Under the pieces are notes generated by a model. That model searched no databases. It was not told the DNA's origin and was given only the letters and a program-made list of their open reading frames with translations. DNA of 64,000 bases from Pelagomonas calceolata (taxonomy: Eukaryota). Made by a program: the position numbers and the translations under genes. Positions 393 through 61,332 of the stretch are shown here, piece by piece; position 1 is the stretch's first letter, and every line of letters starts with the position of its first letter. Location: positions 3,038,001-3,102,000 of the forward strand of contig CAKKNE010000006.1 of assembly GCA_918797485.1 (NCBI GenBank), given 5' to 3'.

Positions 393-415
393 CTAGTGCC
401 TTACGGGGCCGCTAG
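393..415 (-). promoter_or_regulatory. CTAG-bounded intergenic motif copy
   Basis: ctagtgccttacggggccgctag between divergent genes. Confidence 0.6.
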
Positions 416-568
416 CTTGTCTCCGGGACTTGAGCTTGAACAGCACGGCAGAGGCTGCGCAACGAGCTCATATACGATACACGCGAGCGATTACAAGTGC
501 TCTGCAAGCAGCGGACCGCTGGAGCCGAACGCCAACGCCTCGGGCTCAACAAAGCAGCTAGCGACAGC

Positions 569-1762
569 ATGCGCCTCGCCATAGCCTTGCTCCTAAGCGC
601 CGCGACGGCCTACACGCCGCCGCGGCCACCTAGACGATCCCCGCGCTCCCCAGGAGGCAACAACAAGCCACCTAGTCGAAAGCGCGAGATCATAGTAGAA
701 CCTCTAGAATCGTGGGGCGCCTTCGACGCCGGCAAGCACCGCATGGGCGTGAGTACCGTGTCCTGGGGTAATCCGGACAACGGTTTTGTAAGGAAGAAGA
801 AGTTGCGAGGTGGAGAACGCTTCAGCCAAAAAGACTGCCGACTCGCGTACCAGGAGCTCATGAAAAATGACGTCAAAACGTTCGCCATCCCGGGCGGGCA
901 GGCCGCAAATGATTGCTTCGGCAAGGCCGTGAAGAAGGCCAAAGTTTTTGACCCTCCGAAGGTTGTTACTTATTGCGCTCCTTCGCTGAAAGCGCGCTAC
1001 TTCGGCAAAGAGGAAAATAGAAAAAGATATGGGTACGCTTCGGTCGCTACGTCCGTGAATGATGTTTTGGAGGTCCTTGGGAGTGCTTATGTGGATGCTT
1101 GTCTCGTTGGCGGGGCTCTACCGGGGTCGAGCTGCCCCGCGCCTCCGCGCGCTAGTAATTCGATAGAGTCCGTGGGCGTCCAGAACGTCCAGGGTGGGTC
1201 GGCTTTGCGCAAGGCGCATCGAGCTTTTGAGAGGAAAGGTCTACAACTGAAGGCGTGCTACGTCGACTTTTCACTCGTGGACAATTTGGCCATGCGGGAC
1301 GGCACGCTGGAGGCGGCCAAGGAGCTCGACATTACGGTATTAGCGCGGTCGCCTTTGTGTGCTGGTCTAGGGAGTGGCGAGATCACGGAGCGCAACCCGA
1401 CCGGCGGTTCGACAGTCGGCGCGTCCCCGAAGTGGCGGCCGCGGGCCCTGCGGCAATTAGCACCCTTACACGACGCCATCGAGCAGGTCTGCGGCATGGT
1501 GCAGGCGCGGCGGGCCGACGACGAGCGGTCGATGGCCCAGCGGCAGAATAGGGACGCCGGAAAAGTAGAAAAGATCCTACCCGTGCAAGTAGCTTTGCAG
1601 TGGGTCCGCGCGAAGGGCGCGGTACCTCTGCCCGCGGTCAAAAATCAGAAGCACGCCCAGGCGATCATCGGGTGCCAGGGCTGGGCGCTCGAGGAAAACG
1701 AGGTCGCGGTGCTCGACGCGGCGCTGCCTCGGTCGGTGCCAAAGTTCGCGCGGCTGCGCTAA
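569..1762 (+). CDS. aldo/keto reductase family protein (pyridoxal reductase-like), probably plastid-targeted
   Basis: MRLAIALLLSAATAYTPP presequence; MGVSTVSWG, ITVLARSPLCAGLGSG, QVALQWVRAKGAVPLP AKR motifs. Confidence 0.75.
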   Translation: MRLAIALLLSAATAYTPPRPPRRSPRSPGGNNKPPSRKREIIVEPLESWGAFDAGKHRMGVSTVSWGNPDNGFVRKKKLRGGERFSQKDCRLAYQELMKNDVKTFAIPGGQAANDCFGKAVKKAKVFDPPKVVTYCAPSLKARYFGKEENRKRYGYASVATSVNDVLEVLGSAYVDACLVGGALPGSSCPAPPRASNSIESVGVQNVQGGSALRKAHRAFERKGLQLKACYVDFSLVDNLAMRDGTLEAAKELDITVLARSPLCAGLGSGEITERNPTGGSTVGASPKWRPRALRQLAPLHDAIEQVCGMVQARRADDERSMAQRQNRDAGKVEKILPVQVALQWVRAKGAVPLPAVKNQKHAQAIIGCQGWALEENEVAVLDAALPRSVPKFARLR

Positions 1763-1802
1763 GTTTATTATATTATTCGGCGATAGCGTGGGGCGGGCCT
1801 AG

Positions 1803-2686: not shown

Positions 2687-2908
2687 ATGAACGGCGACAT
2701 CTCGCGCCGCGAGTCGACGACCGGGGAAATTGCCCAGGCGCTCGTCGAGGCAAAAACAACCCTGGCCACCAAGTCGTACGACTTCGACGAAGCACGGCTC
2801 CGTTCGCGCAATGCGGCGATCGCTCTGGAGGCGAGCCACGCGGCCTTCAGAGCGCTTGCGGCCGAGAACGACCGCCTGAGGGCGTCCCGACACAATCACT
2901 CGAAGTAG
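2687..2908 (+). CDS. small coiled-coil hypothetical protein
   Basis: 73-aa ATG ORF with a helical heptad pattern (IAQALVEAKTTLA...LAAENDRLR). Confidence 0.4.
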   Translation: MNGDISRRESTTGEIAQALVEAKTTLATKSYDFDEARLRSRNAAIALEASHAAFRALAAENDRLRASRHNHSK

Positions 2909-3160
2909 CCAACTGTAAAACAAACGTACTTATTCACACAATGCGTCGCGCGTCGACGCGCGAAGACCTGCGTCGGGAACGTGAGCGCGGCAGGATACAC
3001 ACCGCTATAAAATGCGACGAACGAGGCGTTGCGTCGGATACAGATTTAGGTATGGATGTAGTTGCGGACATAGCCGTAGTAGCGGCTCCCAATGACGTGC
3101 AAATGTCGGAGGTTTCGTCACCCGCGTACGATATGAACCCAAAAGGACACGGGCACGCAC

Positions 3161-5062
3161 TTAACTCGTCCAGCGGTCGATCGCCGCAAATTCCACCCTA
3201 CGAGCGTAGGGGGCCTCCGGCGGGTCGTCGTCGTCCGAGAACATCAGGTCCAAATGGTGGGCCCCGAGCGGCAAGATCAGGGCGCTCACGTCCTTTGACG
3301 AGGAAAGGTTCCGGAGCCAGGGGCCCGTGTACCTCCCGGGTTCGATCACCGTCAGATCATCATAGACCCCGGCGCTGCTCCACGGATCTAGTAGCCCGTT
3401 CGAAAAGATAATGTTCGAGTAGCCTTCGAGTGACTTCCTGCCAAAATACGCGTCGAGCCACTGGCTCCACGGGTCGGAAGTCGTAGGATAGCCCGCCAGA
3501 CCGGGCGGCGGCGCGCAGCCCGCTCCTTTCGAACCGATAGGCCCCAAGGCGTCCTCGAGCGTCTCATTGGGAGCGTGGTTCGGCGGCCAGTAGAGACCGT
3601 CGGTGTCGCCCTGGTGGAGGTAGTTCACGAGGTTCAAGTCGTCGTTGCAGACCACGGGCTCCCAGGCGCTCGCGGCGCCGCCCGCGTACTGGGTTGAGCA
3701 CGTATCGCTCTTGGTCGTCGTCGCGAAGGGAGGCGTCTGTTGCTTCAAGGTCGCGTCGACGGCGTCGAGGCGACGCCGCGCCGCCTCGACGCCGTCGACG
3801 TGGCCGTCAGAGAGTCTATGCGTCTCGTGAGAGAGCCACGGAGAGTCGCCGTTCGAGCTGTCGCACTGGCTCGGGTCGAAGCACTTGAGTGTATGAGTGA
3901 CGTTGCACCAGACGCTCCAGGCACCTAAAGCTCCATGTAACAACTTAGTTAAATGAGGCATGCTTTCCAAGTCACTGACAGAAGCGGTCGGGAAGAAGTC
4001 CGAGGAGGTCGCGTCCCAGTCCACACTGATAGAAACGCCGTCCACCGTGACACGGTCGTCGGTCACGTCCACCATTAAATCCAACAATTCCGAACAAGCG
4101 ACGCGCGCCGGCCACGCCGGCAGTGCATAGTTTCCAGGTCCGACGGCCGACGTGATATAGGTCGAGGGAAACGGGTAGTCGGCTTCGGCAACGTCAAAAA
4201 AGACGCCCTGGACGGCCTTCGCTAAGCGTAGGCCGGCCTCCTCATCTGTTCCTAATGAACCAGGGCAGAGCCTGAAGCGTTCCGAGAGGAACGTCCTCCC
4301 AGTCGGAGTTTTGCCGATTTCATTCATCAAAGGAAAAGCTCCTCTCAGATTCCGGGCGCAATGTTCCGACCCGCCGGCCTTGCCGAAGGCCCTTGCTACG
4401 GCGATCGCCCCTCCGTTCAACGGCGGTCTACACAAAGGTAAACCCCAGATCGGCGCCGACGCGGCGATGGCGCCTTGTACCGATGCGGGATACTTCAGCC
4501 GGAACCAGGCCGCGAGCATGCCCCCGTAGCTGCCGCCGACGGCGACGACCGGCACTTGGCCATAGATTGCGCGGAGCTTCTGTATTACCACCGCATAATC
4601 GGCCAACGCTTGCTCCACCGTGCAGAAACTCAGGCAATCTCTCATACCTTTGGTGTCGGGCGTGGATCGCGCCTCGTAGCGGTGCTCGGCCCACACTAAT
4701 AATGTGCCAGGTCGCTTAGCCGCATACTCCCACATGAGTCCAGTATTATTAACGTACTCGTCGACCGGGCTCTCGTTGCCGACGTAGAGTAGTACTCGAG
4801 TGATGTTTTTTGTGGCGAAGCCGTCGTACAGACACAAGCGCTGGTCGAAGGTCTTTTCAATACTCCCGAAGTGGTCGAGCTGTTGGGTCAGCGCCTTCCA
4901 GGAGCAGTTCTGCGCGTCCGGGAGAGTTGTGTGGGTGGCGAAGGGGCTGCGCCTCGACGCGAAGCGGCTGGCGCGCCAGCGGCGGCGGTGTCTCAAGCGT
5001 CGCGCGGCCGCGGCGTGTTGCGACAGCAGCACGGCTGCGAGGGCAGTCAGTGCAGCCCTCAT
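3161..5062 (-). CDS. serine carboxypeptidase S28 (lysosomal Pro-X carboxypeptidase-like)
   Basis: signal peptide; QQLDHF, AEHRY, EQALADYA, GGSYGG, FSNGLLDPW, AHHLDL motifs. Confidence 0.92.
   Translation of the reverse strand: MRAALTALAAVLLSQHAAAARRLRHRRRWRASRFASRRSPFATHTTLPDAQNCSWKALTQQLDHFGSIEKTFDQRLCLYDGFATKNITRVLLYVGNESPVDEYVNNTGLMWEYAAKRPGTLLVWAEHRYEARSTPDTKGMRDCLSFCTVEQALADYAVVIQKLRAIYGQVPVVAVGGSYGGMLAAWFRLKYPASVQGAIAASAPIWGLPLCRPPLNGGAIAVARAFGKAGGSEHCARNLRGAFPLMNEIGKTPTGRTFLSERFRLCPGSLGTDEEAGLRLAKAVQGVFFDVAEADYPFPSTYITSAVGPGNYALPAWPARVACSELLDLMVDVTDDRVTVDGVSISVDWDATSSDFFPTASVSDLESMPHLTKLLHGALGAWSVWCNVTHTLKCFDPSQCDSSNGDSPWLSHETHRLSDGHVDGVEAARRRLDAVDATLKQQTPPFATTTKSDTCSTQYAGGAASAWEPVVCNDDLNLVNYLHQGDTDGLYWPPNHAPNETLEDALGPIGSKGAGCAPPPGLAGYPTTSDPWSQWLDAYFGRKSLEGYSNIIFSNGLLDPWSSAGVYDDLTVIEPGRYTGPWLRNLSSSKDVSALILPLGAHHLDLMFSDDDDPPEAPYARRVEFAAIDRWTS
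3737..3839 (-). repeat. palindromic repeat inserted in the S28 gene; homologous to 51295-51382
   Basis: perfect 19-bp inverted repeat 3754-3772/3782-3800; shares gactctctgacggcc(a/g)cgtcgacg with the 51.3-kb copy. Confidence 0.65.
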
Positions 5063-5190
5063 GATATACTCTGTGGAACCCCCCGGCGAGACAAGAGCGC
5101 TTTGATTTGATGAATGCGGGCTCCGAGGGCCAGCCTACGAGGCGTGCGGCTTCACGCAGCCGATGCGCAGCTTCAGCGCGCTCTGCCGAG

Positions 5191-5212
5191 CTAGCGGCAT
5201 GTAAGACACTAG
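5191..5212 (+). promoter_or_regulatory. CTAG-bounded intergenic motif copy
   Basis: ctagcggcatgtaagacactag between divergent genes. Confidence 0.7.
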
Positions 5213-5483
5213 CCTGGCAAAGCCCAAATCAACTGGATTGCGAGGCCGAGCGCGCGTACAGCATTCTATCCGCGTTTACCGAGGCTCCACAGCGCGCTTA
5301 TTACCGTCAGGAACGAAATCTGCACCGCTCACGACGGGTGCGTTCAAAAACAGCACGCTCTCAAAAGCAGCTGAGATTTGATCTCCGCGCGCGCGGCACA
5401 GCAAGCGATATACGCACGCGACGCCAGCCAACGCGCATCAATCTACACGAGCACGCCAGCCGACGCGCGCATCAATCAAGACA

Positions 5484-6237
5484 ATGTCAGCCGTCCCCTT
5501 CGCCGGCGTCGGCAAGCCCTTCCAGAAGCACGCCGAGCGCCACGCCGCCGGCACGCCGCGGGAATCGATAGACGAGTTTGACGGGCGGGCCGTGCTCGCG
5601 CTGCCGCGGGAGGGCGCGTCCAAGGACGGCGAGCGGCCCTGGTTCTCGGGCCAGGTCGTCGCGACGGACGGGTCGCGGCGCCAGTTCCAGGTCCTCGCGA
5701 CCCCCCTACCGCCCTGCGAGGACGGCTGCAAGTGTTCGGGGGGCGACGGCCTGCATAGATATAGGTTGGCCCTCAAGGACGCGACGCGGCGGTTGTGTGC
5801 GGTGGTCATCTGCGACGCGTCGGGCGGCGACTTCCTGCGGTTGAGACCTGTGTGGACATCAAATTTTACGGCGCGTTCGCCTGCCCGATGGCGTGGCGAT
5901 GTCGGTTCCTCACCGCTCGACGGACACCCGACGCACTGGTTGATTTCCACACAGGTTGACGCCGGCGGACCCTTCGTTAGCATCGTTCGAGCCGGAGACG
6001 CTCCTCGAAGACGACCGCGCGCGGGCCGCGCTAGATACGTTCTTCCCGCGCCTCGCGGCGGAGGCCGACGCCGGTTTTGATTGTTGCGTCGTCGTCGGTC
6101 GGTTTCAATGCAAGCAGTTGCTCCTCTTCGGGGCGACGCGGAAGCGCGGGGCCGCCGATGCTATGCCGGGCGCCACGCCGCCGCCCAAGAAGCCGGCGGT
6201 CGCACCGGCTCCGACGACGCCGCCGCCGGGGCCCTAG
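5484..6237 (+). CDS. two-exon hypothetical protein (5484-5839, 5955-6237); possible OB fold resembling the POT1/RPA C-terminus
   Basis: removing intron 5840-5954 joins GGDFLR|LTPADPSL in frame; YRLALKDAT...FDCCVVV resembles the POT1 C-terminal OB fold. Confidence 0.55.
5848..5954 (+). mobile_element. introner element (intron 5840-5954, GT-AG)
   Basis: TIR ctgtgtggacatcaa/ttgatttccacacag; TSD gttgagac/gttgacgc. Confidence 0.85.
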
Positions 6238-6356
6238 GAGGGGTGCCAGCTCCGAGGCGCCCTGGGAGTGGCGTCGCGTCGTCGCTGTGTCTGTGATCTG
6301 TGTGTGTGCCTAACTACCCCCTTCGACGCCGCCGACGCGCCAACTCATAGACAAAC

Positions 6357-6998: not shown

Positions 6999-7479
6999 CC
7001 TGCGCAGCGATGGCGTCGAGGCGCTTGCAATCACTTATGGTGAGGCTGGCTGCCTGTGGGCCTCCTGGGACGAGCGACGGCGGCCGCGGCGGGAGGCGGC
7101 CGGTTTGTAGTCGTTCGTGTGCCGCAAGCGTCTCCCGCTGGAAGGGCTGCGTTTGCGGGCGGAGAGGCACCGCTACACTCAGGCGCTGCGGCGTGAGATG
7201 GCCTCTCTAGAAACGCGAGCGCTCTCCGCGGGCTGCGGACCACGTGTTAACGCGTCTGGAGACGTATGGGTGTGTGGGAGTGCTCGAAATCCGACATGCT
7301 AGTGGGGTTACCTAGCACCATCGGACAAAATTATTTGGGCCGACAAGCAGCCATTACTTTCCGGTTTTGCAACGACAAGCCGCAAAACTCTCGGATCAGT
7401 CGATTGGCTGCCACGCGCCGCCATTCGTCGCCTCCTCTCGCTCTCAGCCCTCGCCGCGCCGGCGCGCAGCCTGGCAGCC

Positions 7480-8223
7480 ATGCCGGCCACCAAGCGCACG
7501 CTCGCGTTGTTCGACGTCGACGGTACATTAACACCAGCGCGCCTGAAGATCACGCCGGAGATGAAGGCCTTCCTCCAAGAATTGCGGAAAACCATCAGCA
7601 TCGGCGTCGTCGGTGGGTCCGACTTCGTCAAGCAACAGGAGCAAATCGGTAGCGATTCTCTGTCCAATTTCGACTACTCCTTCGCCGAGAACGGGTTGGT
7701 AGCGTACAAAAACGACGAACTAATAGCGAAGGCGTCGTTCGCCCAAAAGATCGGCGAAGAGGAGTTACAGAAATTAATTAATTGGGTCCTCGCGTACCTG
7801 TCCAAAATTACGTTGCCCATCAAGCGGGGCACGTTCATCGAGTTCCGGACGGGCATGCTCAACATCTCGCCGATCGGGCGGAACTGCGCGCGCGACGAAA
7901 GGAACGCGTTCGAGGAGTATGATTTGAAGAACAATATAAGAAAGGACATGGTCGCTGCGATGCAGAAAGAGTTCGCCCACCTCAACCTGACCTTCTCGAT
8001 CGGCGGGCAGATCTCGTTCGACGTGTTTCCCGCGGGGTGGGACAAGACGTACTGCCTCCAGTTTGTGGATAGATCGTTGTTCGACGAGGTCCATTTTTTT
8101 GGAGACAAGACCTTTGAAGGCGGTAATGATTATGAGATCTTTACGCACCCGGACGTGAAGGGCCACTCCGTGACGTCGCCGGACGACACGAAGGCGCAGT
8201 GCACGGAGCTGTTCCTCTCGTAG
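7480..8223 (+). CDS. PMM: phosphomannomutase (eukaryotic HAD type)
   Basis: LFDVDGTLT, VGGSD, KRGTFIEFRTGMLNISPIGR, GGQISFDVFP, FFGDKT...GGND. Confidence 0.97.
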   Translation: MPATKRTLALFDVDGTLTPARLKITPEMKAFLQELRKTISIGVVGGSDFVKQQEQIGSDSLSNFDYSFAENGLVAYKNDELIAKASFAQKIGEEELQKLINWVLAYLSKITLPIKRGTFIEFRTGMLNISPIGRNCARDERNAFEEYDLKNNIRKDMVAAMQKEFAHLNLTFSIGGQISFDVFPAGWDKTYCLQFVDRSLFDEVHFFGDKTFEGGNDYEIFTHPDVKGHSVTSPDDTKAQCTELFLS

Positions 8224-8279
8224 ATGATGGACTGTGGTATAAAAACTTGAGATTTAATTGCTAGGGGGTAGGTCGTGAA

Positions 8280-9440
8280 TTAGAGCGTGATGCCGAAGTT
8301 GGCCTCGAGGGCGTCGCGCCACTCCTTCTCCGTGGAAAGAGTCGTGCGGCTGACTTCGACGCCGCGCTCGACGGTCTTGATGTAGTCCTTGCCGAGCATG
8401 ACATGACCGTCGTCCTTGGCGAGGACGCAGAGGCCTGCGGGCGGAACACACACGTCGCCGTCACGACCGTACGAGTCGAAGGGAAGAGGACACCGGGGCG
8501 CTACGCTTCGCTTGGAAGATGTTCTTCTCGGGGTCTTCGTCGAGCACGGCCGCAAGGCCCTCGACGAATTCCGGCGAATCGTACGGGAGGTCATCTTCTA
8601 AATTCAGGGCGTAGACCGGAATTGGGGGCATAGGCTCCGGCGGCGGCGGAGGAGCTCCCACAATATCGAAGAAGGCTGTTGCTGAGCCAACGCTTCGCTC
8701 GCGCATCAGGACGTGGGAAAACCGCTCAGCAAGACCAAACTCTTCTAGGCCGAAGCCAGCGGATGGCGCGAGATTGTACTTTTCGCCGAGCGCAGGATCG
8801 GTCGCGCCGCCCTTGACGGAGAAGATTGTGCGGATCGCGTCGCCGAAACCGGGATCGACGAGCAATGGGTCCGCTCCGAGGCCGTCCACAAAGATGACCA
8901 AATGTCCCTTGTTGGGCGGAGTGCCGGGCGGGCCGAAGACGTCGGAGCGGCCCAGGCGGACGCTGTAGCCCAGCTGGCGCAGGAGCCACGCGAAGGAGAA
9001 ATTGAGTTCGAAGCAAAAACCTCCCCTGTTTTTCTCGACGAGCTTGCTCAGGCACGCGTCGACGTCGAGCGTTGGTAATAACGGCTTGGAAACGGCAGGC
9101 GTGCCGATGAAGGGCAGTCCCTCGGACGGATGGTTGTGCTGTCCAAGGTTCTCAAAAGGAATTGACGAAAGATGCGCGGTCAGCAACGCCTGGAGGTCCT
9201 CCGCGTTCGGTGCTCGGTCCACGATGGCGGCGTCGACCTGCGTAGCGCGCATGTGTCGCGGCGCGCGCGTCTCACGGGGACGCCGATGGGACGCACGCCG
9301 AGGCGGTTCAGGTACATGTCTCGCATCCCGGCATCGTCCGCGCTGCTCGCCGCCGCGCGGGGCTGCCTATGGACTCTGGAATGGGATGGTGGCAGCGTGA
9401 ACGCTGCCGCGACGGGCACAAGGAGCAGCCAAGCAACCAT
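8280..9440 (-). CDS. NAT: arylamine N-acetyltransferase, 3 exons (9440-9297, 9237-8505, 8434-8280)
   Basis: YLNRLG|VD...IPFENL, GGFCFELN, GHL, LVDPGFG (Cys-His-Asp triad); GT-AG introns 9296-9238 and 8504-8435 restore the frame. Confidence 0.88.
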
Positions 9441-9604
9441 GATCGACGGAGCTGGCTTGATTGTAGCCCTTAGCGGCGTTACACTTGCGAAGGCAGCGTC
9501 TGTCTTCTTTTGGCAGCGTCAAATGATGGGGGAGTTCTAGATTCCAAAAACTTGAACTCATGGTGCGGGTCCGCGAAGGCAGACGGATATAAGTAACAAC
9601 ATGA

Positions 9605-11557: not shown

Positions 11558-11643
11558 GTAGTGTAAAGCTATATTGTTTGATCATGATGGACTCGGATTG
11601 TAAAGACTTCCTGGTCAACGGAAACTGAAGAGACGCGTGATTG

Positions 11644-11665
11644 CTAGTGGCTGACAGGACACTAG
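11644..11665 (+). promoter_or_regulatory. degenerate CTAG-bounded motif copy between convergent genes
   Basis: ctagtggctgacaggacactag. Confidence 0.4.
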
Positions 11666-11725
11666 CAAAGCACCTTTCGCGCTATGTTACGACGGCCCGG
11701 GTGACTAAGATTACGTTTACTGCCC

Positions 11726-13085: not shown

Positions 13086-13269
13086 GCTTGCAATGTCGCA
13101 GGTCCCAGGGGCTGGGGCAGTGGGCCACTTCGCTAGTCGAACGCGTTCGTTCGTAGAATGGCTGCGCGGCCTCGGAAGGGGCCACTCGATGTTCTTACCG
13201 GTTGATGGGCGCTCAAGGGCAGCGGTTTGGTGCCCAAGCGCTTTGGAAAGCCGGCAAGCGAATATCGTG

Positions 13270-13291
13270 CTAGTGTCTTACCGCACGCTAG
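13270..13291 (-). promoter_or_regulatory. CTAG-bounded intergenic motif copy
   Basis: ctagtgtcttaccgcacgctag between divergent genes. Confidence 0.7.
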
Positions 13292-13359
13292 GCGCATCGC
13301 ACCTGCGGCGGCTCATATCGCGCTGGATTCGTCCGCATTGATGCTCAAACACGCATAGG

Positions 13360-14250: not shown

Positions 14251-14287
14251 GCTGCGCGTGTTTTTTGTTCGTGTAACTTGTTGTTGG

Positions 14288-14305
14288 CTAGCGGTAAGAC
14301 ACTAG
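14288..14305 (+). promoter_or_regulatory. CTAG-bounded intergenic motif copy (short spacer)
   Basis: ctagcggtaagacactag upstream of the gene at 14450. Confidence 0.7.
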
Positions 14306-14449
14306 CAGGCAAAAACTCCGAACTGCTACTGCCAGTAACCTCCACTGCGGGGCCAAACGAAGCTGCGGAAGACCGAAGAATCTCACGTTATATACAGCTT
14401 CACGGCGCACATCAAGAAACTGCATCAATTCCAGCCGCGCGCTTGAAAA

Positions 14450-19642: not shown

Positions 19643-19872
19643 CTGGTACGTGTTTGTGCGGCTCTCGTTCGCTCGTTCGGCTGAAAGCGACGGATCCAGG
19701 TAGGATTCAGGTGGTCTCTGACTGGCCGACCTTGCGCAGTGAGTTGCGAGGTGTGCGTTGCTGCGCGCTATCGACGGAGCTACCTTTCCGTTTTAATTTA
19801 GTGCTTGATCACTTTTTGGTACGCGTCGTGCCGGACTTCAAGCTCAGCGCGTGCGTGAGTTATTTTTTCAGC

Positions 19873-19894
19873 TTAGCGGCCTGTAACACACTAG
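19873..19894 (+). promoter_or_regulatory. CTAG-bounded intergenic motif copy
   Basis: ttagcggcctgtaacacactag between divergent genes. Confidence 0.65.
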
Positions 19895-19985
19895 CAAAGG
19901 CAAAAAAGCAAAAAGAGCTGCGCAGTAGCAGCCTGAGCCAGCCACACAGCACAGGAATGCGGCTTTCAGCAGTTACAATGCTGCC

Positions 19986-23262: not shown

Positions 23263-23402
23263 CAAATCGTTCAGGCAGCCTGCCTGCGGTGCCTCGGCAA
23301 GGCACAAGGAGCTATGCAAACACCGCGACTCGGTCCAGCCGCGGTGTGGGGCAGCCAAAAAGAGTCGCCTCGCGCTGCCTGCGTGCTTCAGGGCTGGAGT
23401 TT

Positions 23403-23424
23403 CTAGTGCCTTACATGCCGCTGG
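23403..23424 (-). promoter_or_regulatory. CTAG-bounded intergenic motif copy
   Basis: ctagtgccttacatgccgctgg between divergent genes. Confidence 0.6.
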
Positions 23425-23559
23425 CAGACCAGCTTTAATTTTTCAGCTGGCACGAGCCGAGGTGACCCGGCGGAGATTGCGCGCCGGCACGGGCCGGCCG
23501 CACCGCGCACGATCGTCCCGGCACTATAGAGTGGCCGGGCAGCCCGGGACGGCTGCGCG

Positions 23560-25021: not shown

Positions 25022-25416
25022 CTTTTTTTTTACCTGTGTGGCACAAGAGGTGCTATTCGTGCGCGTGTCGACCTCGACGCGGCGTCGAGTTGTCTCGGTG
25101 CGATTCCTGAGGCCGCTGCGCAGTGCCGGGCCGGCGGTAGCGCGTCTCGGCGCTCCCACAAACGATCGCGAGGCACCATAGCGCTTGGCCGCAGCCTTTT
25201 AGCCCGGCTTATGCAGCAGATGCATGAAGCTCGGTTATTAGGGCTCGCCAGCAGCTGAAATTCTCGCTGTGACCTCTCAGCGCATACATGTGACTTAAGA
25301 AGTGCCGTCCGTGTCAAGAAAGTTTGCAAATGCTCCGTTTTATACCGCTTTTAGCCCTGTTGACGCAAGAGGCCGCTTCCTAGTGGTCGTACACCGCTAG
25401 CTACGATGTTGATTGA

Positions 25417-25518: not shown

Positions 25519-26807
25519 GGCTAGGCCCAGGGCTGCCGGACGGGAAGAGTCTGTCCCCTAAAAGTACGACGCCTGGAAGGGCCCCTCCGACGATCCGACG
25601 AGGTCCCCAAAAAAATATATCGCGCGCCGCGCGCCGCCCACTAATTCTAGGACCGTGACAATATTCATCACGGGTGGGGGACCCCGCGACGTAACTAGCC
25701 TGAGCCTGAGGTCGAGGACAACTCGCCTACGGACCCGCCCTCTTGCACCCAGAGGGAGGGAGTGAGGAGTCTATTTACAAAGCCACTGCCGCGCCCACGC
25801 TTCGCGTCGTCGCCCGCGCCCCGCGCCGGGCCGACGGGTTGTCGCGCAGGTTGTGCGGCTTCAGCGCGCCGCCCGTGCCGGCCGACGCGTCGGCGTTGGG
25901 CGTGTTCAAAGCGCTGAGCGCCGGCCAGTCAAACGGCGTCGTCCGCACCTTCTCGAACACGAAGTCGGGGTAGCCACCGACGCAAGCCCCGCCGTGAGGT
26001 CGGCTCCGGCGTCGCTTCGACGAGCACATGCACCGCTTTTCGTGCGTTGGCACGGCGTAGGCGTAGGCGTGGACTCGGCCCCGGCGTCAGCGCGGTCTGG
26101 CATCGGTCAAAGTGTCGGTCCAGGCCTAGGGATTCCGTGTAGGCGTAGGCGCAGGCGAGGGCGACATGGGCAAAGGCGAGGGCGTCGATTTCAGGCGCAG
26201 GTCCCGGCCAGACCAAGGGTTCGTGCAGAAATCACAATGTGTCAGGTGGGGCAGTTTTCAGCCCTTCTCACGCGACGCGCGCAGCTACACGACTCCATGG
26301 GCAACCTACGGGTCCACGGCGTCCTCGGCTACGGCAGCAAGCATGCCTTGTGGCTCTGGTCCGCGCCGTCGCCGACGTTCGAGCAAATGATGCATGGGCC
26401 CTCGTCGGCGCCCGAGGCTGTCCGGCGCGTCCGCCACGGTGGCTGGCGACGTAGGGAGGCAGTCGGAGGACTCGCGCCGGCCTCCTCTGGCTCCTGGCTT
26501 GTGCTGTAGCAAAACGGCGGCATTCGAGAGCATGAAGGATGAACCCAATCGACGCCCGAGGATGCGTAGCTCGTCCGCCGCGGTGGAGCGGACGTCTGCC
26601 GGTTGGCGCGGTGATCGATGGGCTCCGACGCCGGCGCCGGCCGCCGCAGATTGCGGCAAATCGCTGTAATCTCGCTTGACAGCTCTCCCAAAAACCCGGC
26701 AAAGATATGAAAACGCTCCGCTCAGATTCCCGCGCTGCGGCTGCAGTATAAGCGCAGCCAAGGCAGCTGTTTGAAGACAAACCAAGGTGTGAAACCCGCG
26801 TCGAAAT

Positions 26808-26828
26808 CTAGAGTCTTACCGCCGCTAG
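26808..26828 (-). promoter_or_regulatory. CTAG-bounded motif copy upstream of the giant ORF
   Basis: ctagagtcttaccgccgctag. Confidence 0.6.
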
Positions 26829-27290
26829 CTTTACGCCCGGTAGAAAGTTCGGGTCTGATCAAACGCCCTTGCGGCCAACACACGCGCTGCGACTCGTAAA
26901 GTGGCCTCGGATCTGGTGCTGACTGCCTATTAGTAGGGCGCAAGCCTTATGGCGTGCCGGCGCGTGGCCTCGCGGCCCCGCGCTGCGCCCAAATGTCCAT
27001 CACCACCATCACTCTGGCCGAGCGTTTTGTGCGCGCTGGCTCTTGCGGCAACCGCTTCGCAGCGATGCCGCAGTCCCGCCACGCACGCTTCGCCGGTGCG
27101 CGCCTCGCAGCTCCTCGGCCGGCCGTCGCCGGAGAATACGAGCGCCGCCGCGAGCGCCGACACTTTTTTTTGTTTCAAGGCATCATCATCAACGACATCG
27201 CGCCGACCTCGTGCTCGCCGACGCCGAGGCTCTTCGTGCTCACGCCGTTCTTCTACTGCTGGAGACGCGCGCGCCGACGCCTGCGGCGCC

Positions 27291-32308: not shown

Positions 32309-32397
32309 GAGCTTTGGCAGCCAGGCTCGCGCCAGGAGTGGTCCGGAGCGAGTTCACAGGATAGTAACACGCTAGGGCCAGGTATGAAGGACCGGTG
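32309..32397 (+). repeat. diverged direct repeat, right copy
   Basis: matches 25417-25518. Confidence 0.75.
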
Positions 32398-35231: not shown

Positions 35232-35302
35232 GGCCGTTCCCAGTGTAATTATGTGTGAAATTGAACCCCGGATCGCCGTGGGGGCGCGTCGACAGCGTTT
35301 AG

Positions 35303-35322
35303 CTAGCGGTCTAAGACACTAG
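35303..35322 (+). promoter_or_regulatory. CTAG-bounded intergenic motif copy
   Basis: ctagcggtctaagacactag upstream of the selenoprotein gene. Confidence 0.65.
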
Positions 35323-35632
35323 CAAGTACCTCAGGCCACGCTGGCGGCCTTGTAGCGGTGCGTAGAGTCCACCAGAGTTGGCTCCAGTGCGCAAGGATCG
35401 TCTACGTGTGGCTGGTCGACGGGTAGGCTAACCTCCGTAGCTCGGGAGACAGCGTACGTGACACTGCACACTGTATGACCAACGCAGCACTCGTGCCGCT
35501 AGATCTCGAGGACGGAGTCGTAGGCTACGACGCAGTCCTAGCAGAGATCAAGTGATACGCGACGTCTGAAGGCACCTACGCGCTCCCATACGTGTCGGGC
35601 ATCTTTTGTATTTTACCAGCAGCGGCGATACT

Positions 35633-40174: not shown

Positions 40175-40326
40175 GAGCGGTTTGGTGGCTCTAGCGCTCC
40201 AATCTGTCCCGCGTTTTCGCGCGGAGCGCTGCGGCGACACCACTGTGCACTAATGCCGTGGACTGTGGCCACCTTTAGGCTTCGAAGGCTGTGAAATCCG
40301 CATACGCGGCTAATTGCGCGCGATTG

Positions 40327-40348
40327 CTAGCGTGCTGTAAGACACTAG
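40327..40348 (+). promoter_or_regulatory. CTAG-bounded intergenic motif copy
   Basis: ctagcgtgctgtaagacactag between divergent genes. Confidence 0.7.
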
Positions 40349-40539
40349 CGAGGCGCTGATTTTTGAGAATTGTGCTGTACAGCGCTGCATACTGCCTAAA
40401 ACAACGCCAGAGATACCTCGCAGAGACCAGTGTTCACCAGTACTGGGCCTCAGCCAAAAGAAACGCACTCATCGGACGATTAGACGACGTTTTTTGCTCC
40501 ACGAGTCAAAAGCCTCAACTTTTTTGAACAGCGCGAGCG

Positions 40540-45163: not shown

Positions 45164-45498
45164 GGCTGCCTCTTGCCTTTTTACGACGCTGCGCGACTGC
45201 GAGGGCTGCCCCCGGTCCTTCTGTGGCTGCCCTGTGTTGCCTCGCGCAGCCCGAAGCGGTCTGGGTTGCGAAGAGCGGGATTTACGCGCGTGCGGAGGCC
45301 CTGCTTGGGCACAATGTATCTTGGAATTGCTTAATTCCTCGCCTGCTATTGCCATTTGGCGCCCCGCAATTGCTGCCCGCGGAGTCACCTCGGCTCTCGC
45401 CGGGCCACATCGGACGCACGGAGCCTCCTCCGAGCACTGCGCGCGCAGCAGCCGGTCTCGCGCGCCCGTGGAGTTGCCACAGAGGTAGCACAAGCACG

Positions 45499-47555: not shown

Positions 47556-47627
47556 GGTATGTGGGTGCCAAACGTGTGCGCGCACGGCAGAATAGGCAGC
47601 TGTCGCAGTTGTTTGGCCTCTGTCGAG

Positions 47628-47649
47628 CTAGCGTCCTGTAAGTCTCTAG
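47628..47649 (+). promoter_or_regulatory. CTAG-bounded intergenic motif copy
   Basis: ctagcgtcctgtaagtctctag between divergent genes. Confidence 0.65.
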
Positions 47650-47763
47650 CACACTCTATGAGTAAGACGAGCTGCCGCACGCTTCCTTAAAGATAGCAGG
47701 CTGTGAATAGCTTGTTTGGATAGCTTGGGCCCGAGCCTGACCTGGCAAAGCGACGCAAAAACC

Positions 47764-49280: not shown

Positions 49281-49673
49281 CTTGGTGGGGCGGGGCAGCT
49301 TGGCTGGCCTCCCTGCGGTCGAGCCAAAGCTTGGAAACAAAGGAAGCTAGTAGCTTTTACGGGATCACGAGCTGACATGCGTCATGGGGCGCGTCGATGG
49401 CGTACTGCGCTTCGGATTCGTGGCTGTAACGGACCCCTCTCAGGCCTGAAAACCCGGCAAATCGAGACCGCTGGACTTGTGACACGCTGCAGTTGCACGT
49501 AGGCCGGCATAGGGCTGTGCTGTTAGCTCGTACGAGGTAGCAGGAGTACGTATTGACAAGTGCAAAGCGATCTCTCGCTTTTGCACACGCGTCCGGGCCG
49601 ATAAAGGCTGCTGCAATTGGGAGAGCATCTCTCTTGCACGCGTGCGTGCCGCACAGCACAAATAGCTGCAACG

Positions 49674-52264: not shown

Positions 52265-52557
52265 GGTTGCTGGCGTGCGGCGCGGCGCACCGATGCGCGT
52301 ATGGCGTCAGGTGCGACGCAGCGTCGCCCCGATGGCGTGTGGCCAGCGGTAATCCTCGCGCTCGCGCTGGCGGCGTCCAGATCTGTCCGGCACCGAGGCT
52401 TGTGGCTTGTGGTGCCAGCAGCTGTGGCAGTGATCAGCGGGAGCTAGACAGCGCGATTCTATGAGTCCAAGGGAGTGTCTGTACGAAGCTGGCAGCTTCT
52501 GTAAGTATGAGGGGCGCCGTTTAAGCCGAAGCTGCCTTGGATGCAAGGCGCTGTTAA

Positions 52558-52577
52558 CTAGTGTAGCGACACACTAG
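52558..52577. promoter_or_regulatory. degenerate CTAG-bounded motif copy
   Basis: ctagtgtagcgacacactag. Confidence 0.4.
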
Positions 52578-52662
52578 GCCAAAAAAACAATTGCTCAGAG
52601 CTAGGCCGCCTAGCCGATAGGAGCCATACGCCATCGACGCGAGAGAAGCACAAAAACACAGC

Positions 52663-53937: not shown

Positions 53938-54073
53938 CACGGGGGCAGCCTGTGCAGCACGCATCTCTTCACCACGGCGTCGCAGGCATGTGATGGGACG
54001 CCTTCGGCGCCTTGGGCAGCCTTTCCGGCGCGTGGGCGAGCTGTGCGCTGCCAAAGCTGATTCTCTACGATTG

Positions 54074-54095
54074 CTAGTGTCTTACAAGACGCTAG
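54074..54095 (-). promoter_or_regulatory. CTAG-bounded intergenic motif copy
   Basis: ctagtgtcttacaagacgctag between divergent genes. Confidence 0.7.
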
Positions 54096-54302
54096 GGTGA
54101 AATTGTTGCCGGCAAAAGTCCGCAAAACGGCGCCAGATCGCAGCCAAACACAGCACCGGAAGCTCGGTTTAAGCTCGTGCACACGCTGCGCCCCAGCCCG
54201 CGCATCAATTTGTGCCTGAAACGCCAGCGTCTACTCTGAAACTCCTGCGCATTGTCAGGGCCACCGATCTAGACTCCTGCGTCAGCGCCACCGATCAAAA
54301 GA

Positions 54303-54962: not shown

Positions 54963-54977
54963 CAAGTGTTAATGTTA

Positions 54978-56305: not shown

Positions 56306-56412
56306 GATCGCTGCGGTTTATGAACAACTGGTCGTGATGCTTGCGTAAACGAAACAAAATAGCGGTCGAACAGGGCTGTTTTGCAGAATTTTGCTTTGCT
56401 TCTTGTAGAATG

Positions 56413-56434
56413 CTAGTGTCTTACACGCCGCTAG
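56413..56434 (-). promoter_or_regulatory. CTAG-bounded intergenic motif copy
   Basis: ctagtgtcttacacgccgctag between divergent genes. Confidence 0.7.
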
Positions 56435-56642
56435 CTAATTCCGCGGCTCGCGCGCGCCAGCCGACTTTGCCACGCTACGCCCTAAGTTTAAAAAGTAGGG
56501 ACTGTGCCGGTCTATATCTTTGCGCGCTGCAACGTAATTGGACTGGGGACGGCGCTGGGCGGCACACAAAAACACCTTGTGGAGAGCGCAACATCGCAGC
56601 GCGCCCGGGCCGCCGCGACGGACTGCAGACACCACAGATAAA

Positions 56643-58679: not shown

Positions 58680-58981
58680 GTTGGCAGTTCTTCCGTCACC
58701 GGAGTGCAGAGATGATGGCTGTCACACGCAGAGAGATGTGTGAGAGCTGAGGGCGGTTAGGCGCAACGCACTGCAGCAACGCCTCGAATATCTGGTCGTG
58801 AGCTGTCTGAAAGCTACTGGATGCAACCACGAAGGCTTTGGACTGCCTGTATATGGAATGCCGCGGTGGTCAAGCGCGACTTGCGTGTTTTCTAGAGTGT
58901 TTGATACACTATTATTATGGGGCAACTTGGGGCAGCCTCGCAGCACGCTAACAGTGCAAGCCGCCGCCGCATGGGTGGGGC

Positions 58982-61213
58982 ATGAGGACCGCACTCCTGC
59001 GATGCGTCGCGCTGCGCGCCGCCGCCGCGGCCACGGCGCCGCTCCTTTATGCACCCATCGACCGCGAGGTCTGCGTGCCCACCGTCACGGACGACGGCAC
59101 AGGCCCGTCCTTCTGCGTCGACTTCGTGAGGGAGGACTTGTTTGACGCAGCGGAACGGTTCTGCGACGATAATAATGTGTGCAGCGGCCACGAGGCGGGC
59201 GCGCTGGCGTACGCGGCGCGACGCGAACTCGAAAGGCAAGGTAATGAAGCCGAGCGGGCCTTGCGTGGACGGTTCCTGGAACTCGTGTCCGAAAAGGAAG
59301 ACCCCTGGACTACTGTGAGTGATCCCATCGCGAAAAGACGGACGAGAATTAGGAGGCACCAGGCGCGCGTTTTGGTGCAAGGGTCCTTCCCGGAGCCAGA
59401 AGAAGGCTGCCCCAACCAACGGGAACGAGCGTTAAGAGCGTGCGCGTTATCCAGGGCCTACACGGTCATCGACGTCCCACCTAACTTGAACGAGACGAGG
59501 GTGTGGCTCCTGAACACCTCTGTGGTCAATGTGGGCCCCAAAGCCTGGGCGTTGATCGGCGAGGTCTTCACGGAGGACGAGCACTACGCCCACGCCATCG
59601 CTTGCTTCTTGAGAAGCTTGGAGCAGGGCCTCGCGATTCGCGATCCCGGACGGGCGGCTTTATTAGATATGAACCTCGGGACGGTATTAGGGTGCTGGGG
59701 CGAACTTGCACTAGCAGCGCGATTGCTGGGCCGGGCCCACGCCCGGGCGTTGAAGCTCGCGGAGGCGAACCAATCCTACGATTATGCGGCACTAGCATTA
59801 GCGGCCAGGGTGAACGCGGCCGTATTGGTGCCGCCCGTCGTGCCCCCTCCACATGAGTTGAATGACCTACGTAATCTGCTACGGAGCGACCTGCGAGCCC
59901 TCGCGTCCCAAGATCTCCGCAAAAGTGCAGCTCGACATATTCAAGGAGACGATTCGAGTTATGATGAAGCCATTGTGAGAAGAGTCGGAAGGACGTTGTT
60001 CAACCTGGCGCACCAGTGCGGTCAGGATGATGCGGAGATCATGTTTTTACTAGCTTCGACGTTAACAAGGGCGGCGCCGTCCCTCGTCGAAGAAGTCCCG
60101 GAGCTGCCAAGGTTACAAAATGAAGTCGTAAAGCTGGGCTTCGCCTCGGCGCATTTGTGCGACCATAGTATTGGCAAGATGCTCGCGGACCCTCTCATTT
60201 TCCTGGCGCGGGATCCGCGGCTCGAGGTCTATGCCTTGCATGTCGCGTTCGGCCCGCCCTCGGACGACGACCACGTCCGCAAGTTCTTGCACGAGTTACT
60301 CGGCGAGCGGTCCTACGCTTTATCGGTGGATGTGAGAGAGGCCCGCAAAGAGGTCATTTCATTCAACCTAGACGTTTTAGTGTTCCCGGATCTGGGGATG
60401 GAGATCCCTTCCTATTTACTCGCCTTTTCGAGGTTGGCCCGAGTCCAGTGCGCGTGGTGGGGCCACCCCGTGTCGACGGGTCTACCGTCGATCGACTATT
60501 GGTTGGGCCTGGACACGGAGCGAGATGATGCTTTCCAGGAGTACTCCGAGCAGCTCGTGAGGTTTAGTCACGTGAACACGGCGCCGTTTCATCCGCAACG
60601 AGGCACGCCGGTCAACCGGACCGATCTGGTATCAAAAGATCCGGGCGGCGCCATCTACCTGGTGCTCGGGAGGCTGTTCAAGGTCCACGCTTTGTTTGAT
60701 GATATGTTGCTGGATTTACTGGAGCGTGATCGAACGGGCGTCGTGCTACTCGTGGGCGAGCCCCAGGAGCCGCTTACCATCAAAACTTATCAAAGAATTC
60801 AGAGGAGAGGTCTAGAGAGAAATCTGAAGACGGACCGCATCCACTTTATTGATTATTGGGCCTACATGGGGGCCCTCGCTACTGCTAGAGTCGTGCTCGA
60901 TACGCACCCCTACGGGGGCTGTCTTACCGCATTAGATGCGCTGTCGAACGGCGTACCTCTGGTCGTGTTACCGGGCCCCGCGGAGCGCGGGAGGCACGCG
61001 GCGTCTATTTATCAACAGATGGGGGTGTCGGACTTCGTGGCCGCCAATCAATCGGACTATGTCAGTATAGCCGCCCGCCTGGGCACGGACGACGCGTATC
61101 ATGAAGCGGCGGTCGCTAGGATCCGGGCGTCGTACCTGGACGCGCACCGCGCCGGGGCCGTCGCGGCCGAATGGGCGGGGGCGTTCCTGCGCATGGCGCG
61201 GGGGGCGGTCTGA
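58982..61213 (+). CDS. GT41 (SPINDLY/OGT-like) glycosyltransferase with signal peptide
   Basis: LCDHSIGK, LDVLVFPDLGM, RLARVQCAWWGHPVSTG, LDTHPYGGCLTALDAL. Confidence 0.85.
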   Translation: MRTALLRCVALRAAAAATAPLLYAPIDREVCVPTVTDDGTGPSFCVDFVREDLFDAAERFCDDNNVCSGHEAGALAYAARRELERQGNEAERALRGRFLELVSEKEDPWTTVSDPIAKRRTRIRRHQARVLVQGSFPEPEEGCPNQRERALRACALSRAYTVIDVPPNLNETRVWLLNTSVVNVGPKAWALIGEVFTEDEHYAHAIACFLRSLEQGLAIRDPGRAALLDMNLGTVLGCWGELALAARLLGRAHARALKLAEANQSYDYAALALAARVNAAVLVPPVVPPPHELNDLRNLLRSDLRALASQDLRKSAARHIQGDDSSYDEAIVRRVGRTLFNLAHQCGQDDAEIMFLLASTLTRAAPSLVEEVPELPRLQNEVVKLGFASAHLCDHSIGKMLADPLIFLARDPRLEVYALHVAFGPPSDDDHVRKFLHELLGERSYALSVDVREARKEVISFNLDVLVFPDLGMEIPSYLLAFSRLARVQCAWWGHPVSTGLPSIDYWLGLDTERDDAFQEYSEQLVRFSHVNTAPFHPQRGTPVNRTDLVSKDPGGAIYLVLGRLFKVHALFDDMLLDLLERDRTGVVLLVGEPQEPLTIKTYQRIQRRGLERNLKTDRIHFIDYWAYMGALATARVVLDTHPYGGCLTALDALSNGVPLVVLPGPAERGRHAASIYQQMGVSDFVAANQSDYVSIAARLGTDDAYHEAAVARIRASYLDAHRAGAVAAEWAGAFLRMARGAV

Positions 61214-61310
61214 GGCGGTCTTGTCTCTTAAAATTTAGTGTGTGTCTACTTTTTTGAATCTACTAATTTACATTAGCATCTCGGAAAACTCGTCGCTTCC
61301 GGAGATCGGG

Positions 61311-61332
61311 CTAGCGTCCTGTAAGACACTAG
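61311..61332 (+). promoter_or_regulatory. CTAG-bounded intergenic motif copy
   Basis: ctagcgtcctgtaagacactag. Confidence 0.7.

What the first reader, a model, noticed from the sequence alone, without database searches (positions are those of the whole stretch)
393..61332. Recurrent ~22-bp CTAG...GTAAGACACTAG element marking intergenic promoter regions
About 18 copies of YTAGCG-N(0-5)-GTAAGACACTAG occur in either orientation, at 393, 5191, 7299*, 10670, 11644*, 13270, 14288, 19873, 23403, 25380*, 26808, 35303, 40327, 47628, 52558*, 54074, 56413 and 61311 (* degenerate). Every copy I found is outside a CDS. Nearly all sit ~70-350 bp upstream of a start codon, mostly between divergent genes of unrelated function (PMM, ATG5, ORC4, NFU). 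Two CTAG palindromes frame a conserved asymmetric core with a variable spacer. Inference: a general bidirectional promoter or nucleosome-phasing element bound by an unknown factor, or a domesticated micro-transposon. I do not recognise it as a described core promoter motif. It is not universal: some divergent gaps (e.g. 45163/45499) lack a clear copy.
Basis: partly seen in the sequence, partly recalled or inferred. Interest (0 to 1): 0.85.

Follow-up and report, generated by a model that had tools for sequence, protein, structure and literature searches.

The report
Dominant two-way promoter element in Pelagomonas
A 24-base, nearly mirror-symmetric DNA motif sits as a single copy in half of the promoter-bearing gaps of this stretch of the abundant ocean alga Pelagomonas, with RNA ends about 10 to 75 bases away on either side; it is likely the docking site of an unidentified general factor that opens promoters in both directions, and it was not found in the papers searched.

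Summary
Real and far beyond chance. Fifteen strong copies of GCTAGCG-(G/T)CCT-GTAAGACACTAGC lie in the window; 20 simulations gave none. All 15 are intergenic: 11 of 18 divergent, 3 of 10 tandem and 1 of 17 convergent gaps. The window is Pelagomonas calceolata, and the density implies roughly 8,000 copies per genome. The 'spacer' has its own consensus, so the element is an 11+2+11 quasi-palindrome. RNA 5' ends lie 9-76 bp from the edge on both sides (median 30), and 5 of 9 sharp 5' pile-ups have a CTAG 30-36 bp upstream (p about 1e-4). In 4 homologous locus pairs from marine metagenomes the element keeps its place while its flanks are unalignable; in 2 of the 4 it is inverted. There is no target-site duplication, no hairpin covariation and no uniform decay, so it is not a MITE or a cruciform. 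Best reading: an orientation-independent site for an unknown general promoter factor, working like yeast Reb1/Abf1 sites or the vertebrate CGCG element. It is unusually long (about 28 bits against the 13 needed). Binding, nucleosome effects and sufficiency are untested.

The parts
392..416 (-). strong site, 5-nt spacer; divergent gap
   Evidence: 27.4 bits; RNA 5' pile-up at 357, 35 bp from the edge; contig ends of the + gene at 425 and 465
5190..5213 (+). strong site; divergent gap (S28 peptidase / unknown gene)
   Evidence: 35.9 bits; two RNA contigs end at 5181; inverted in the orthologous locus L007
10669..10691 (+). strong site, 3-nt spacer; divergent gap
   Evidence: 30.5 bits; 5' pile-up at 10722, 31 bp from the edge
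11643..11666 (-). near-symmetric strong site between two 3' ends (the convergent exception)
   Evidence: 25.0 bits, and 14.9 bits on the other strand; convergent gap by ORFs and stranded RNA
13269..13292 (-). strong site; divergent gap (ATG5)
   Evidence: 34.5 bits; contig ends at 13223 and 13193
14287..14306 (+). strong site, no spacer; tandem gap 36 bp after the ATG5 stop
   Evidence: 32.9 bits; contig ends at 14323 and 14335
19872..19895 (+). strong site; divergent gap
   Evidence: 29.3 bits; gene map
23402..23425 (-). strong site; divergent gap
   Evidence: 27.1 bits; gene map
26807..26829 (-). strong site, 3-nt spacer; upstream of the long repeat-containing ORF
   Evidence: 29.6 bits; the left-hand gene is uncertain and no RNA was laid here
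35302..35323 (+). strong site, 2-nt spacer; tandem gap
   Evidence: 29.5 bits; no RNA was laid here
40326..40349 (+). strong site; divergent gap
   Evidence: 35.9 bits; contig end at 40365
47627..47650 (+). strong site; divergent gap (NFU)
   Evidence: 30.1 bits; Pfam NifU
54073..54096 (-). strong, nearly palindromic site; divergent gap (methyltransferase / calponin-homology protein)
   Evidence: 34.5 bits; contig end at 54064
56412..56435 (-). strong site; divergent gap (ORC4)
   Evidence: 35.9 bits; contig ends at 56359
61310..61333 (+). strong site; tandem gap
   Evidence: 32.8 bits; gene map
7298..7316 (.). degenerate CTAG pair upstream of PMM
   Evidence: below 8 bits; PMM 5' pile-ups at 7344 and 7346, about 30 bp from the CTAG
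7207..7210 (.). lone CTAG, possible half-site
   Evidence: 33 bp upstream of the 5' pile-up at 7173/7175
   Evidence: CTAG 36 bp upstream of the 5' pile-up at 49309-49315
52557..52578 (.). degenerate symmetric CTAG pair; tandem gap
   Evidence: below 8 bits; contig ends at 52542 and 52539
25379..25401 (.). degenerate CTAG pair beside a CTAG-rich repeat
   Evidence: below 8 bits; seen in the sequence; status uncertain

Best explanation
This is a single-copy, orientation-independent element in the promoter gaps of Pelagomonas, and it is likely the binding site of an abundant, unidentified general regulatory factor that would hold the promoter open so that RNA polymerase II starts a few tens of bases away on either side. 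Shown: abundance, intergenic position, preference for gaps holding a gene start, RNA 5' ends flanking it on both sides, conservation against diverged flanks, and both orientations at homologous promoters. Inferred: a protein reads it as two CTAG-containing half-sites. The strong right half is AAGACACTAGC and the weaker left half is GCTAGCG(G/T)CCT. Spacing of 2-5 bp is tolerated, which fits two flexibly linked DNA-binding modules or two proteins better than a rigid homodimer. Also inferred and untested: it creates a nucleosome-depleted region, serves mostly moderately expressed genes, and may block read-through from neighbouring genes.
For: 15 strong sites against 0 in 20 simulations. 15 of 15 are intergenic. 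None of 120 metagenome-locus sites lies in a frame that scores as coding on both sides. Among 51 of 149 sites with both neighbours called, 30 are start/start, 19 start/end and 2 end/end; p=0.004 against the share of convergent gaps by length. The caller was right on 79 of 82 calls at the window's own gaps, where it was trained. 5 of 9 sharp 5' pile-ups have a CTAG 30-36 bp upstream against a background of 0.064, p=1e-4. Twelve RNA ends next to strong sites lie 9-76 bp from the edge, median 30: 8 on the right-half side and 4 on the left. In 4 of 4 homologous pairs the element is kept while flanks within 15 bp do not align; 2 of the 4 are inverted. Three MYND-type paralogs carry it about 60-65 bp before the ATG with unrelated flanks. 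Base-composition profiles are mirror-symmetric about the element (AT r=0.57, reached by 0 of 300 shifted controls). Sites are not clustered: 0.03-0.06 per kb within 2.5 kb of another site, 0.26 per kb beyond. 0 of 17 genes with a strong site, but 6 of 13 without one, exceed read depth 150 (read by hand; p=0.003).
Against: No binding, chromatin or reporter data exist. No nucleosome-scale or 10-bp periodicity is anchored on the site, though the genome shows none at all. Only 2 of the 5 matching pile-ups are at strong sites; 3 are at degenerate or lone CTAGs. One intragenic pile-up (3682) was left out, which makes it 5 of 10 (p=2e-4). 32 rows of RNA ends were not shown, and poly(A) RNA-seq loses true 5' ends. 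One strong site lies between two 3' ends. 7 of 18 divergent gaps have no strong site. Tandem sites show no stable divergent RNA. Convergent gaps are short, so part of the divergent excess is length. All metagenome loci were picked by the motif, so its presence in both members of a pair is expected. The 6 high-depth genes include at least two paralogs. About 28 bits of information against about 13 needed is more than one ordinary transcription factor requires.
Confidence: 0.65

Rival explanations
1. The element is itself the core promoter. A divergent TBP-like factor reads the central TGTAAGA (TCTTACA on the other strand) in place of TATA, and the two CTAG boxes act as symmetric TFIIB-type or SNAPc-type contacts, so one site launches polymerase either way.
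For: The outermost RNA ends lie only 9-17 bp from the edge at 5 strong sites (425, 5181, 14323, 40365, 54064), which would put the -30 position inside the element. The T before GTAAGA is 76% conserved although it was not in the search pattern. The excess information fits a multi-subunit complex. Another stramenopile lineage lacks detectable TATA boxes (PMC3599244, abstract).
Against: Sharp pile-ups at strong sites are 31-35 bp from the edge, and ends scatter out to 76 bp. Spacer length varies from 0 to 6 bp. The asymmetric core does not set gene direction (14 forward against 5 reverse at tandem sites, p=0.06). The Pelagomonas TBP sequence could not be obtained here.
Confidence: 0.17
2. It is a tiny insertion element that targets promoter CTAG sites, duplicates the CTAG and inserts in either orientation; any promoter effect is incidental or a later domestication.
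For: The element is bounded by CTAG repeats. It has a master-like consensus (GCCT is the commonest spacer, 26 of 139 sites). It is inverted at 2 of 4 homologous places. Lone CTAGs at the same distance from 5' ends could be empty sites.
Against: The part between the CTAGs is only 14 bp and has no terminal repeats. There is no excess of 3-8 bp flanking duplications in 147 sites; a small 2-bp excess (76 against 59) has no preferred offset. Conservation is position-specific (21-29 of 29 at the CTAG boxes and most core positions against 7-12 of 17 in the spacer), and uniform decay would imply about 209 hidden copies in 64 kb. The AAGC flank follows the element's orientation. A paralog without the element (L011) shows no CTAG at that place.
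Confidence: 0.08
3. It is primarily a boundary, cohesin-loading or replication-origin signal that lies in promoter gaps because those are the open intergenic DNA.
For: One copy every 4 kb, evenly spaced; one site between two 3' ends; several tandem sites lie 36-110 bp after a stop codon. Yeast general factors also act as roadblocks to RNA and DNA polymerases (PMC5052057, abstract).
Against: It is depleted in convergent gaps even after length correction, and RNA 5' ends keep a narrow distance from the CTAG. About 8,000 copies in 32 Mb is very dense for origins (recalled comparison).
Confidence: 0.08
4. It acts as a DNA hairpin or cruciform rather than as a protein-read sequence.
For: 2 of 6 sites folded as DNA are more stable than shuffles (z -3.0 and -4.0).
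Against: 4 of 6 are not. The consensus keeps a C-A mismatch between the arms, and the outer positions do not covary (93 paired against 94.9 expected among 151 sites).
Confidence: 0.02

Closest known systems
Yeast general regulatory factor sites (Reb1, Abf1, Rap1); PMC8163841 (passages read), PMC5052057 (abstract read)
   Same: Sequence-specific promoter sites. In yeast they act as barriers with symmetric nucleosome arrays and as polymerase roadblocks. Abf1 has a gapped two-part motif (recalled).
   Different: No sequence match that I recognise (from recall; no motif database was available). This element is longer, about 28 bits, and sits at about half of promoter gaps, whereas each yeast factor covers a minority (recalled). 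Its protein and chromatin effect are unknown.
Vertebrate CGCG element TCTCGCGAGA; PMC6192621 (abstract start and passages read)
   Same: Palindromic element in TATA-less housekeeping promoters, with divergent start sites mostly within 50 bp and activity independent of orientation.
   Different: Unrelated sequence; 10 bp and a perfect palindrome against 24-28 bp and asymmetric with variable spacing; present in a subset of promoters. Methylation sensitivity and sufficiency are shown there and untested here.
Oomycete core promoter motifs INR, FPR and DPEP; PMC3599244 (abstract and section 12 read)
   Same: Lineage-specific, TATA-less promoter code in a stramenopile.
   Different: Those motifs overlap or follow the start site, and DPEP is mostly forward-oriented; INR+FPR is in about 13% of genes. 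This element lies upstream of the RNA ends on both sides and occurs in either orientation.
Pelagophyte introner elements (MITE-like introns); 10.1101/2021.10.25.465678 (passages read)
   Same: Thousands of short dispersed repeats with inverted ends in the same genome.
   Different: Introners are about 200 bp, sit inside genes and are spliced out. This element is 24 bp, intergenic and shares no sequence with them by eye.

Membership tests
General regulatory factor site (Reb1/Abf1-like role) | Promoter-proximal, intergenic, at many unrelated genes | tested here: met
   15 of 15 intergenic, 14 of 15 in gaps with a gene start; neighbours include ATG5, ORC4, NFU and a peptidase
General regulatory factor site (Reb1/Abf1-like role) | Acts in either orientation | tested here: met
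   Gene starts on both sides; inverted in 2 of 4 homologous pairs. Occurrence is shown, activity is inferred.
General regulatory factor site (Reb1/Abf1-like role) | Nucleosome-depleted region with phased arrays on both sides | tested here: inconclusive
   Mirror-symmetric composition, but no nucleosome-length periodicity at the site or anywhere in the sequence
General regulatory factor site (Reb1/Abf1-like role) | Bound by a known GRF protein or matching its motif | not testable with these tools
CGCG element | Consensus TCTCGCGAGA | tested here: not met
   The consensus is different
CGCG element | Divergent start sites within about 50 bp | tested here: met
   10 of 12 RNA ends next to strong sites lie within 50 bp; these are RNA-seq ends, not capped ends
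CGCG element | Sufficient in a two-way reporter; silenced by CG methylation | not testable with these tools
   Needs experiments; the element holds one CG, kept in 26 of 29 less-biased sites
TATA-box core promoter | TATAWAAR consensus (recalled) | tested here: not met
   The central TGTAAGAC matches 5 of 8 positions by eye (consensus)
TATA-box core promoter | Sets one direction and a fixed distance to the start | tested here: inconclusive
   14 against 5 at tandem sites, p=0.06; ends at 9-76 bp
MITE or transposon remnant | Target-site duplication outside the element | tested here: not met
   No excess for 3-8 bp in 147 sites; a fixed CTAG duplication cannot be excluded by this test
MITE or transposon remnant | Neutral, uniform decay of copies | tested here: not met
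   Position-specific conservation and bimodal scores
MITE or transposon remnant | Presence/absence polymorphism with empty sites | tested here: inconclusive
   Loci were picked by the motif; one paralog without it has no CTAG there
Structured RNA or cruciform | Covarying base pairs or an Rfam match | tested here: not met
   No covariation; 0 Rfam hits in the window

The most novel reading that the evidence does not exclude
Pelagomonas has replaced the usual promoter code with one long, flippable site that is the core promoter of about half its genes. A lineage-specific multi-subunit or transposase-derived factor, or a TBP of altered specificity, reads two CTAG boxes around TGTAAGA and launches polymerase II both ways from a single site.
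Probability: 0.2. Interest if true: 0.88.

Novelty: new variant of a known kind. Interest (0 to 1): 0.66.

Why it matters
P. calceolata is among the most abundant eukaryotes of the open ocean, and no promoter element for a pelagophyte turned up in the papers searched. One long motif at about half of promoter gaps gives a direct handle on how gene-dense algal genomes define and share promoters. It is bait for pulling down the factor, a compact candidate two-way promoter for transformation, and a landmark for gene calling and for spotting pelagophyte DNA in metagenomes. Its excess information and its flipping between relatives make the choice between a barrier factor and a new core-promoter code directly testable.

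Tried and rejected
No whole genome is held, so genome-wide counts are extrapolated.

Nucleosome phasing from sequence: there is no CG or WW period near nucleosome length at the site, no such autocorrelation in the sequence at all, and no 10-11 bp period (best case reached by 13 of 200 controls). The test is uninformative. The random-anchor control was badly posed, because anchors inside genes score as 'start'; it was replaced by the gap-midpoint validation.

Whether the flips are micro-inversions or stepwise turnover is unresolved: flanks within 40 bp align well in neither orientation.

Other collections: the exact motif has 0 hits in viral contigs. A relaxed motif has 3 hits in 38-44% GC contigs that look like chance. 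Prokaryote genomes give 32 hits in 596 Gb, mostly without the extended consensus. ORC4 and PMM scans of viral contigs gave no pelagophyte loci. An attempt to reach the Pelagomonas TBP through archaeal TBP loci was dropped as unlikely to work. RAG/Transib-type ends were considered after PMC9435367 (passages read): the Aureococcus terminal repeats given there do not resemble the element. An RFX X-box resemblance (recalled) fails on spacing.

Not-in-print searches: GTAAGACACTAG, 0 papers; three sub-strings, 21 papers, 20 listed, none on algae by title; Pelagomonas+promoter+motif; Pelagomonas calceolata+intergenic; Aureococcus+nucleosome+promoter+motif; pelagophyte+TSS; core promoter+stramenopile; TBP+Aureococcus. 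These were seen as listings only. The genome preprint has 0 occurrences of 'motif' or 'promoter' in its main text. Its supplements, the journal version and subscription papers were not seen and may bear on novelty. Papers on Aureococcus linker methylation and introners are not held. Earlier scan notes held nothing on this motif.
Full report
Observation. The core GTAAGACACTAG occurs 13 times with at most one mismatch, against 0.08 expected, and the bipartite exact pattern 8 times against 0.00. A two-block weight matrix built from 15 seed sites finds those 15 at 25-36 bits, then only one further place at 12 bits inside a coding sequence. Twenty Markov simulations give none above 18 bits.

Organism. 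Six of six window proteins looked up are in the collection on a contig of 3,909,377 bp. A protein named Pelagomonas calceolata lies on a contig of the same length. GC content near 63% and spliced introner-type repeats agree with the species' genome preprint (10.1101/2021.10.25.465678, passages read: 32.4 Mb, 16,667 genes).

Anatomy. With the window these give 151 sites after dropping one duplicate locus (L077) and one low-GC locus (L117). Spacer lengths among 139 locus sites were 4 (78), 3 (36), 5 (11), 2 (10), 1 (2), 0 (1) and 6 (1). Positions that were not in the search pattern are still conserved: the 4-nt spacer reads (G/T)CCT, and the right flank reads C-A-A-G-C with decaying strength. 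The element is therefore GCTAGCG-KCCT-GT-AAGA-CACTAGC, two 11-bp arms around 2 bp, with a strong right arm and a weak left arm. It is read as sequence, not as structure: the arms keep a C-A mismatch, outer positions do not covary (93 paired against 94.9 expected), and 4 of 6 sites fold no better than shuffles. In the less-biased set of 29 sites the information is about 28 bits, against about 13 bits needed to find 7,600 sites in the genome.

Position. On a hand-made map of 46 genes, all 15 strong sites are intergenic: 11 of 18 divergent, 3 of 10 tandem and 1 of 17 convergent gaps. Convergent gaps are short (2.2 of 12.5 kb), so the window alone is weak evidence on this point. Across 149 sites, 51 had both neighbours called: 30 start/start, 14 end/start in the element's direction, 5 in the opposite direction and 2 end/end; p=0.004 after length correction. 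The caller was right on 79 of 82 calls at the window's gaps, on genes it was trained on. None of 120 testable locus sites lies in a frame that scores as coding on both sides. Further sites are rare within 2.5 kb of a site and reach 0.26 per kb beyond, close to the window's 0.23 per kb. That extrapolates to 7,600-8,400 per genome.

RNA. Stranded poly(A) reads (X21, X22, X24, one sample) and contigs (X5, X6, X9) were laid on 40 of the 64 kb. Sharp 5' pile-ups lie at 357, 7173/7175, 7344/7346, 10722, 43008-43026, 45296, 45364/45365, 46906 and 49309-49315. Five of these nine have a CTAG 30-36 bp upstream, against a background of 0.064 (p=1e-4). Adding the intragenic pile-up at 3682, which I had dropped, gives 5 of 10 (p=2e-4). 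Two of the five are at strong sites and three at degenerate or lone CTAGs. Twelve RNA ends next to strong sites lie 9-76 bp from the edge (median 30), on both sides. None of the 32 contig pieces shown crosses a strong site; 738 pieces were not shown, and two X5 contigs from other loci share sequence up to 5213, so the element does sometimes occur in contigs. Such libraries lose true 5' ends (established knowledge), so real starts may be closer. Tandem sites at 14287 and 52557 show no stable divergent RNA. None of 17 genes with a strong site exceeds depth 150, leaving aside a repeat pile-up at 18677-19343, while 6 of 13 genes without one do (hand-read; p=0.003); two of the six are clear paralogs.

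Relatives. L007 is orthologous to window 2804-6242 at 77-84% nucleotide and 85% protein identity. It carries the element at the same place but inverted relative to collinear outer flanks. L039/L086 is also inverted; L016/L118 and L054/L098 keep the orientation. In all four pairs the flanks within 15 bp do not align (z at most 2.3 in either orientation), while 90-180 bp away they do. Orthology is firm for window/L007 and L016/L118, where both neighbours match, and less sure for the other two. Three paralogs of a MYND-type family carry the element 60-65 bp before the ATG, and a fourth (L011) lacks it there. Because loci were picked by the motif, its presence is expected; the informative parts are the kept position, the unalignable flanks and the flips. 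More distant pelagophytes (ORC4 at 38-56% identity) could not be examined. Prokaryote and viral collections show chance-level hits or apparent algal contamination.

Mechanism. Shown: a long, single-copy, position-conserved site flanked by RNA starts on either side. Inferred (0.65): a general regulatory factor with two DNA-binding modules binds it and keeps the gap open, as Reb1 and Abf1 do in yeast (PMC8163841, passages), and polymerase starts on whichever side has a gene. The near symmetry lets the site flip, by template switching or through symmetric intermediates such as 11643 and 54073, without loss. Rivals are a true core promoter read by a divergent TBP-like complex (0.17), a CTAG-duplicating mini-insertion (0.08), a boundary or origin signal (0.08) and a cruciform (0.02).

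Comparison and novelty. It works most like yeast general-factor sites and the vertebrate CGCG element (PMC6192621), but it is a member of neither by sequence. It differs from the oomycete INR/FPR/DPEP code (PMC3599244). The motif was not found in ten literature searches (two of them sought analogues) or in the main text of the genome preprint; supplements and subscription papers were not seen.

Verdict. A real, apparently undescribed, genome-scale promoter element of a known functional kind, unusual in its length, its dominance and its flipping. Interest 0.66.

Noticed in passing
window 42960-42968 and 45314-45322: A second promoter motif, CAC(T/A)ATGTATCTT, lies 40-60 bp upstream of the 5' pile-ups of two highly expressed genes that lack the main element. 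At 45314 it sits between divergent 5' ends only 69 bp apart. The exact 9-mer has 0 copies in the 121 loci.
   Followed up: partly
window 25424-25518 and 32315-32397: A 95-bp CTAG-rich direct repeat (76% identical) brackets the 1,676-codon ORF at 26949-31979. The ORF has four 297-bp tandem repeats, no Pfam hit and no Atlas hit for its N-terminal part. Possibly a mobile or captured unit that carries its own strong site at 26807.
   Followed up: partly
window 61333-61350; L019, L060, L062, L068, L111, L116, L119: When the element ends in CTAGG, 8 of 17 sites continue with CAT or GAT, often with a further (T/A)AG, instead of the usual AAGC. This may be a second overlapping module.
   Followed up: no
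window 12074-12146, 18852-19025, 19144-19317, 38653-38838: Spliced introns carrying the introner-type terminal repeat.
   Followed up: no
window 36935-37040: GC-AG intron near the 5' end of the phosphoglycerate dehydrogenase-like gene; the transcript begins near 36834, well upstream of the listed ORF.
   Followed up: no
window 8237-8252, 43898, 48419, 54965: First-mate pile-ups lie within about 30 bp of stop codons, which suggests very short 3' UTRs.
   Followed up: no
L123:2148-3041, L138:355-1672, L149: Contigs of marine prokaryote genome bins carry a full-consensus element, in L123 and L138 next to algal-looking ORFs; L138 and L149 share the flank. Likely pelagophyte contamination or chimeric contigs.
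   Followed up: partly
L007; proteins P0216 and P0217: Marine metagenomes hold Pelagomonas-like lineages at about 84-87% protein identity to the window. All 4 homologous pairs found were divergent; none was near-identical.
   Followed up: partly
window 43059-43904, 44381-45163, 45499-46191, 48411-49280: Four nearby, highly expressed genes of unknown function share a similar N-terminal stretch; two are clear paralogs at 37% identity.
   Followed up: no
window about 9470-9491, 58892-58912 and 63387-63397: Further half-site-like or degenerate matches seen by eye in promoter gaps without a strong site; not above noise.
   Followed up: no
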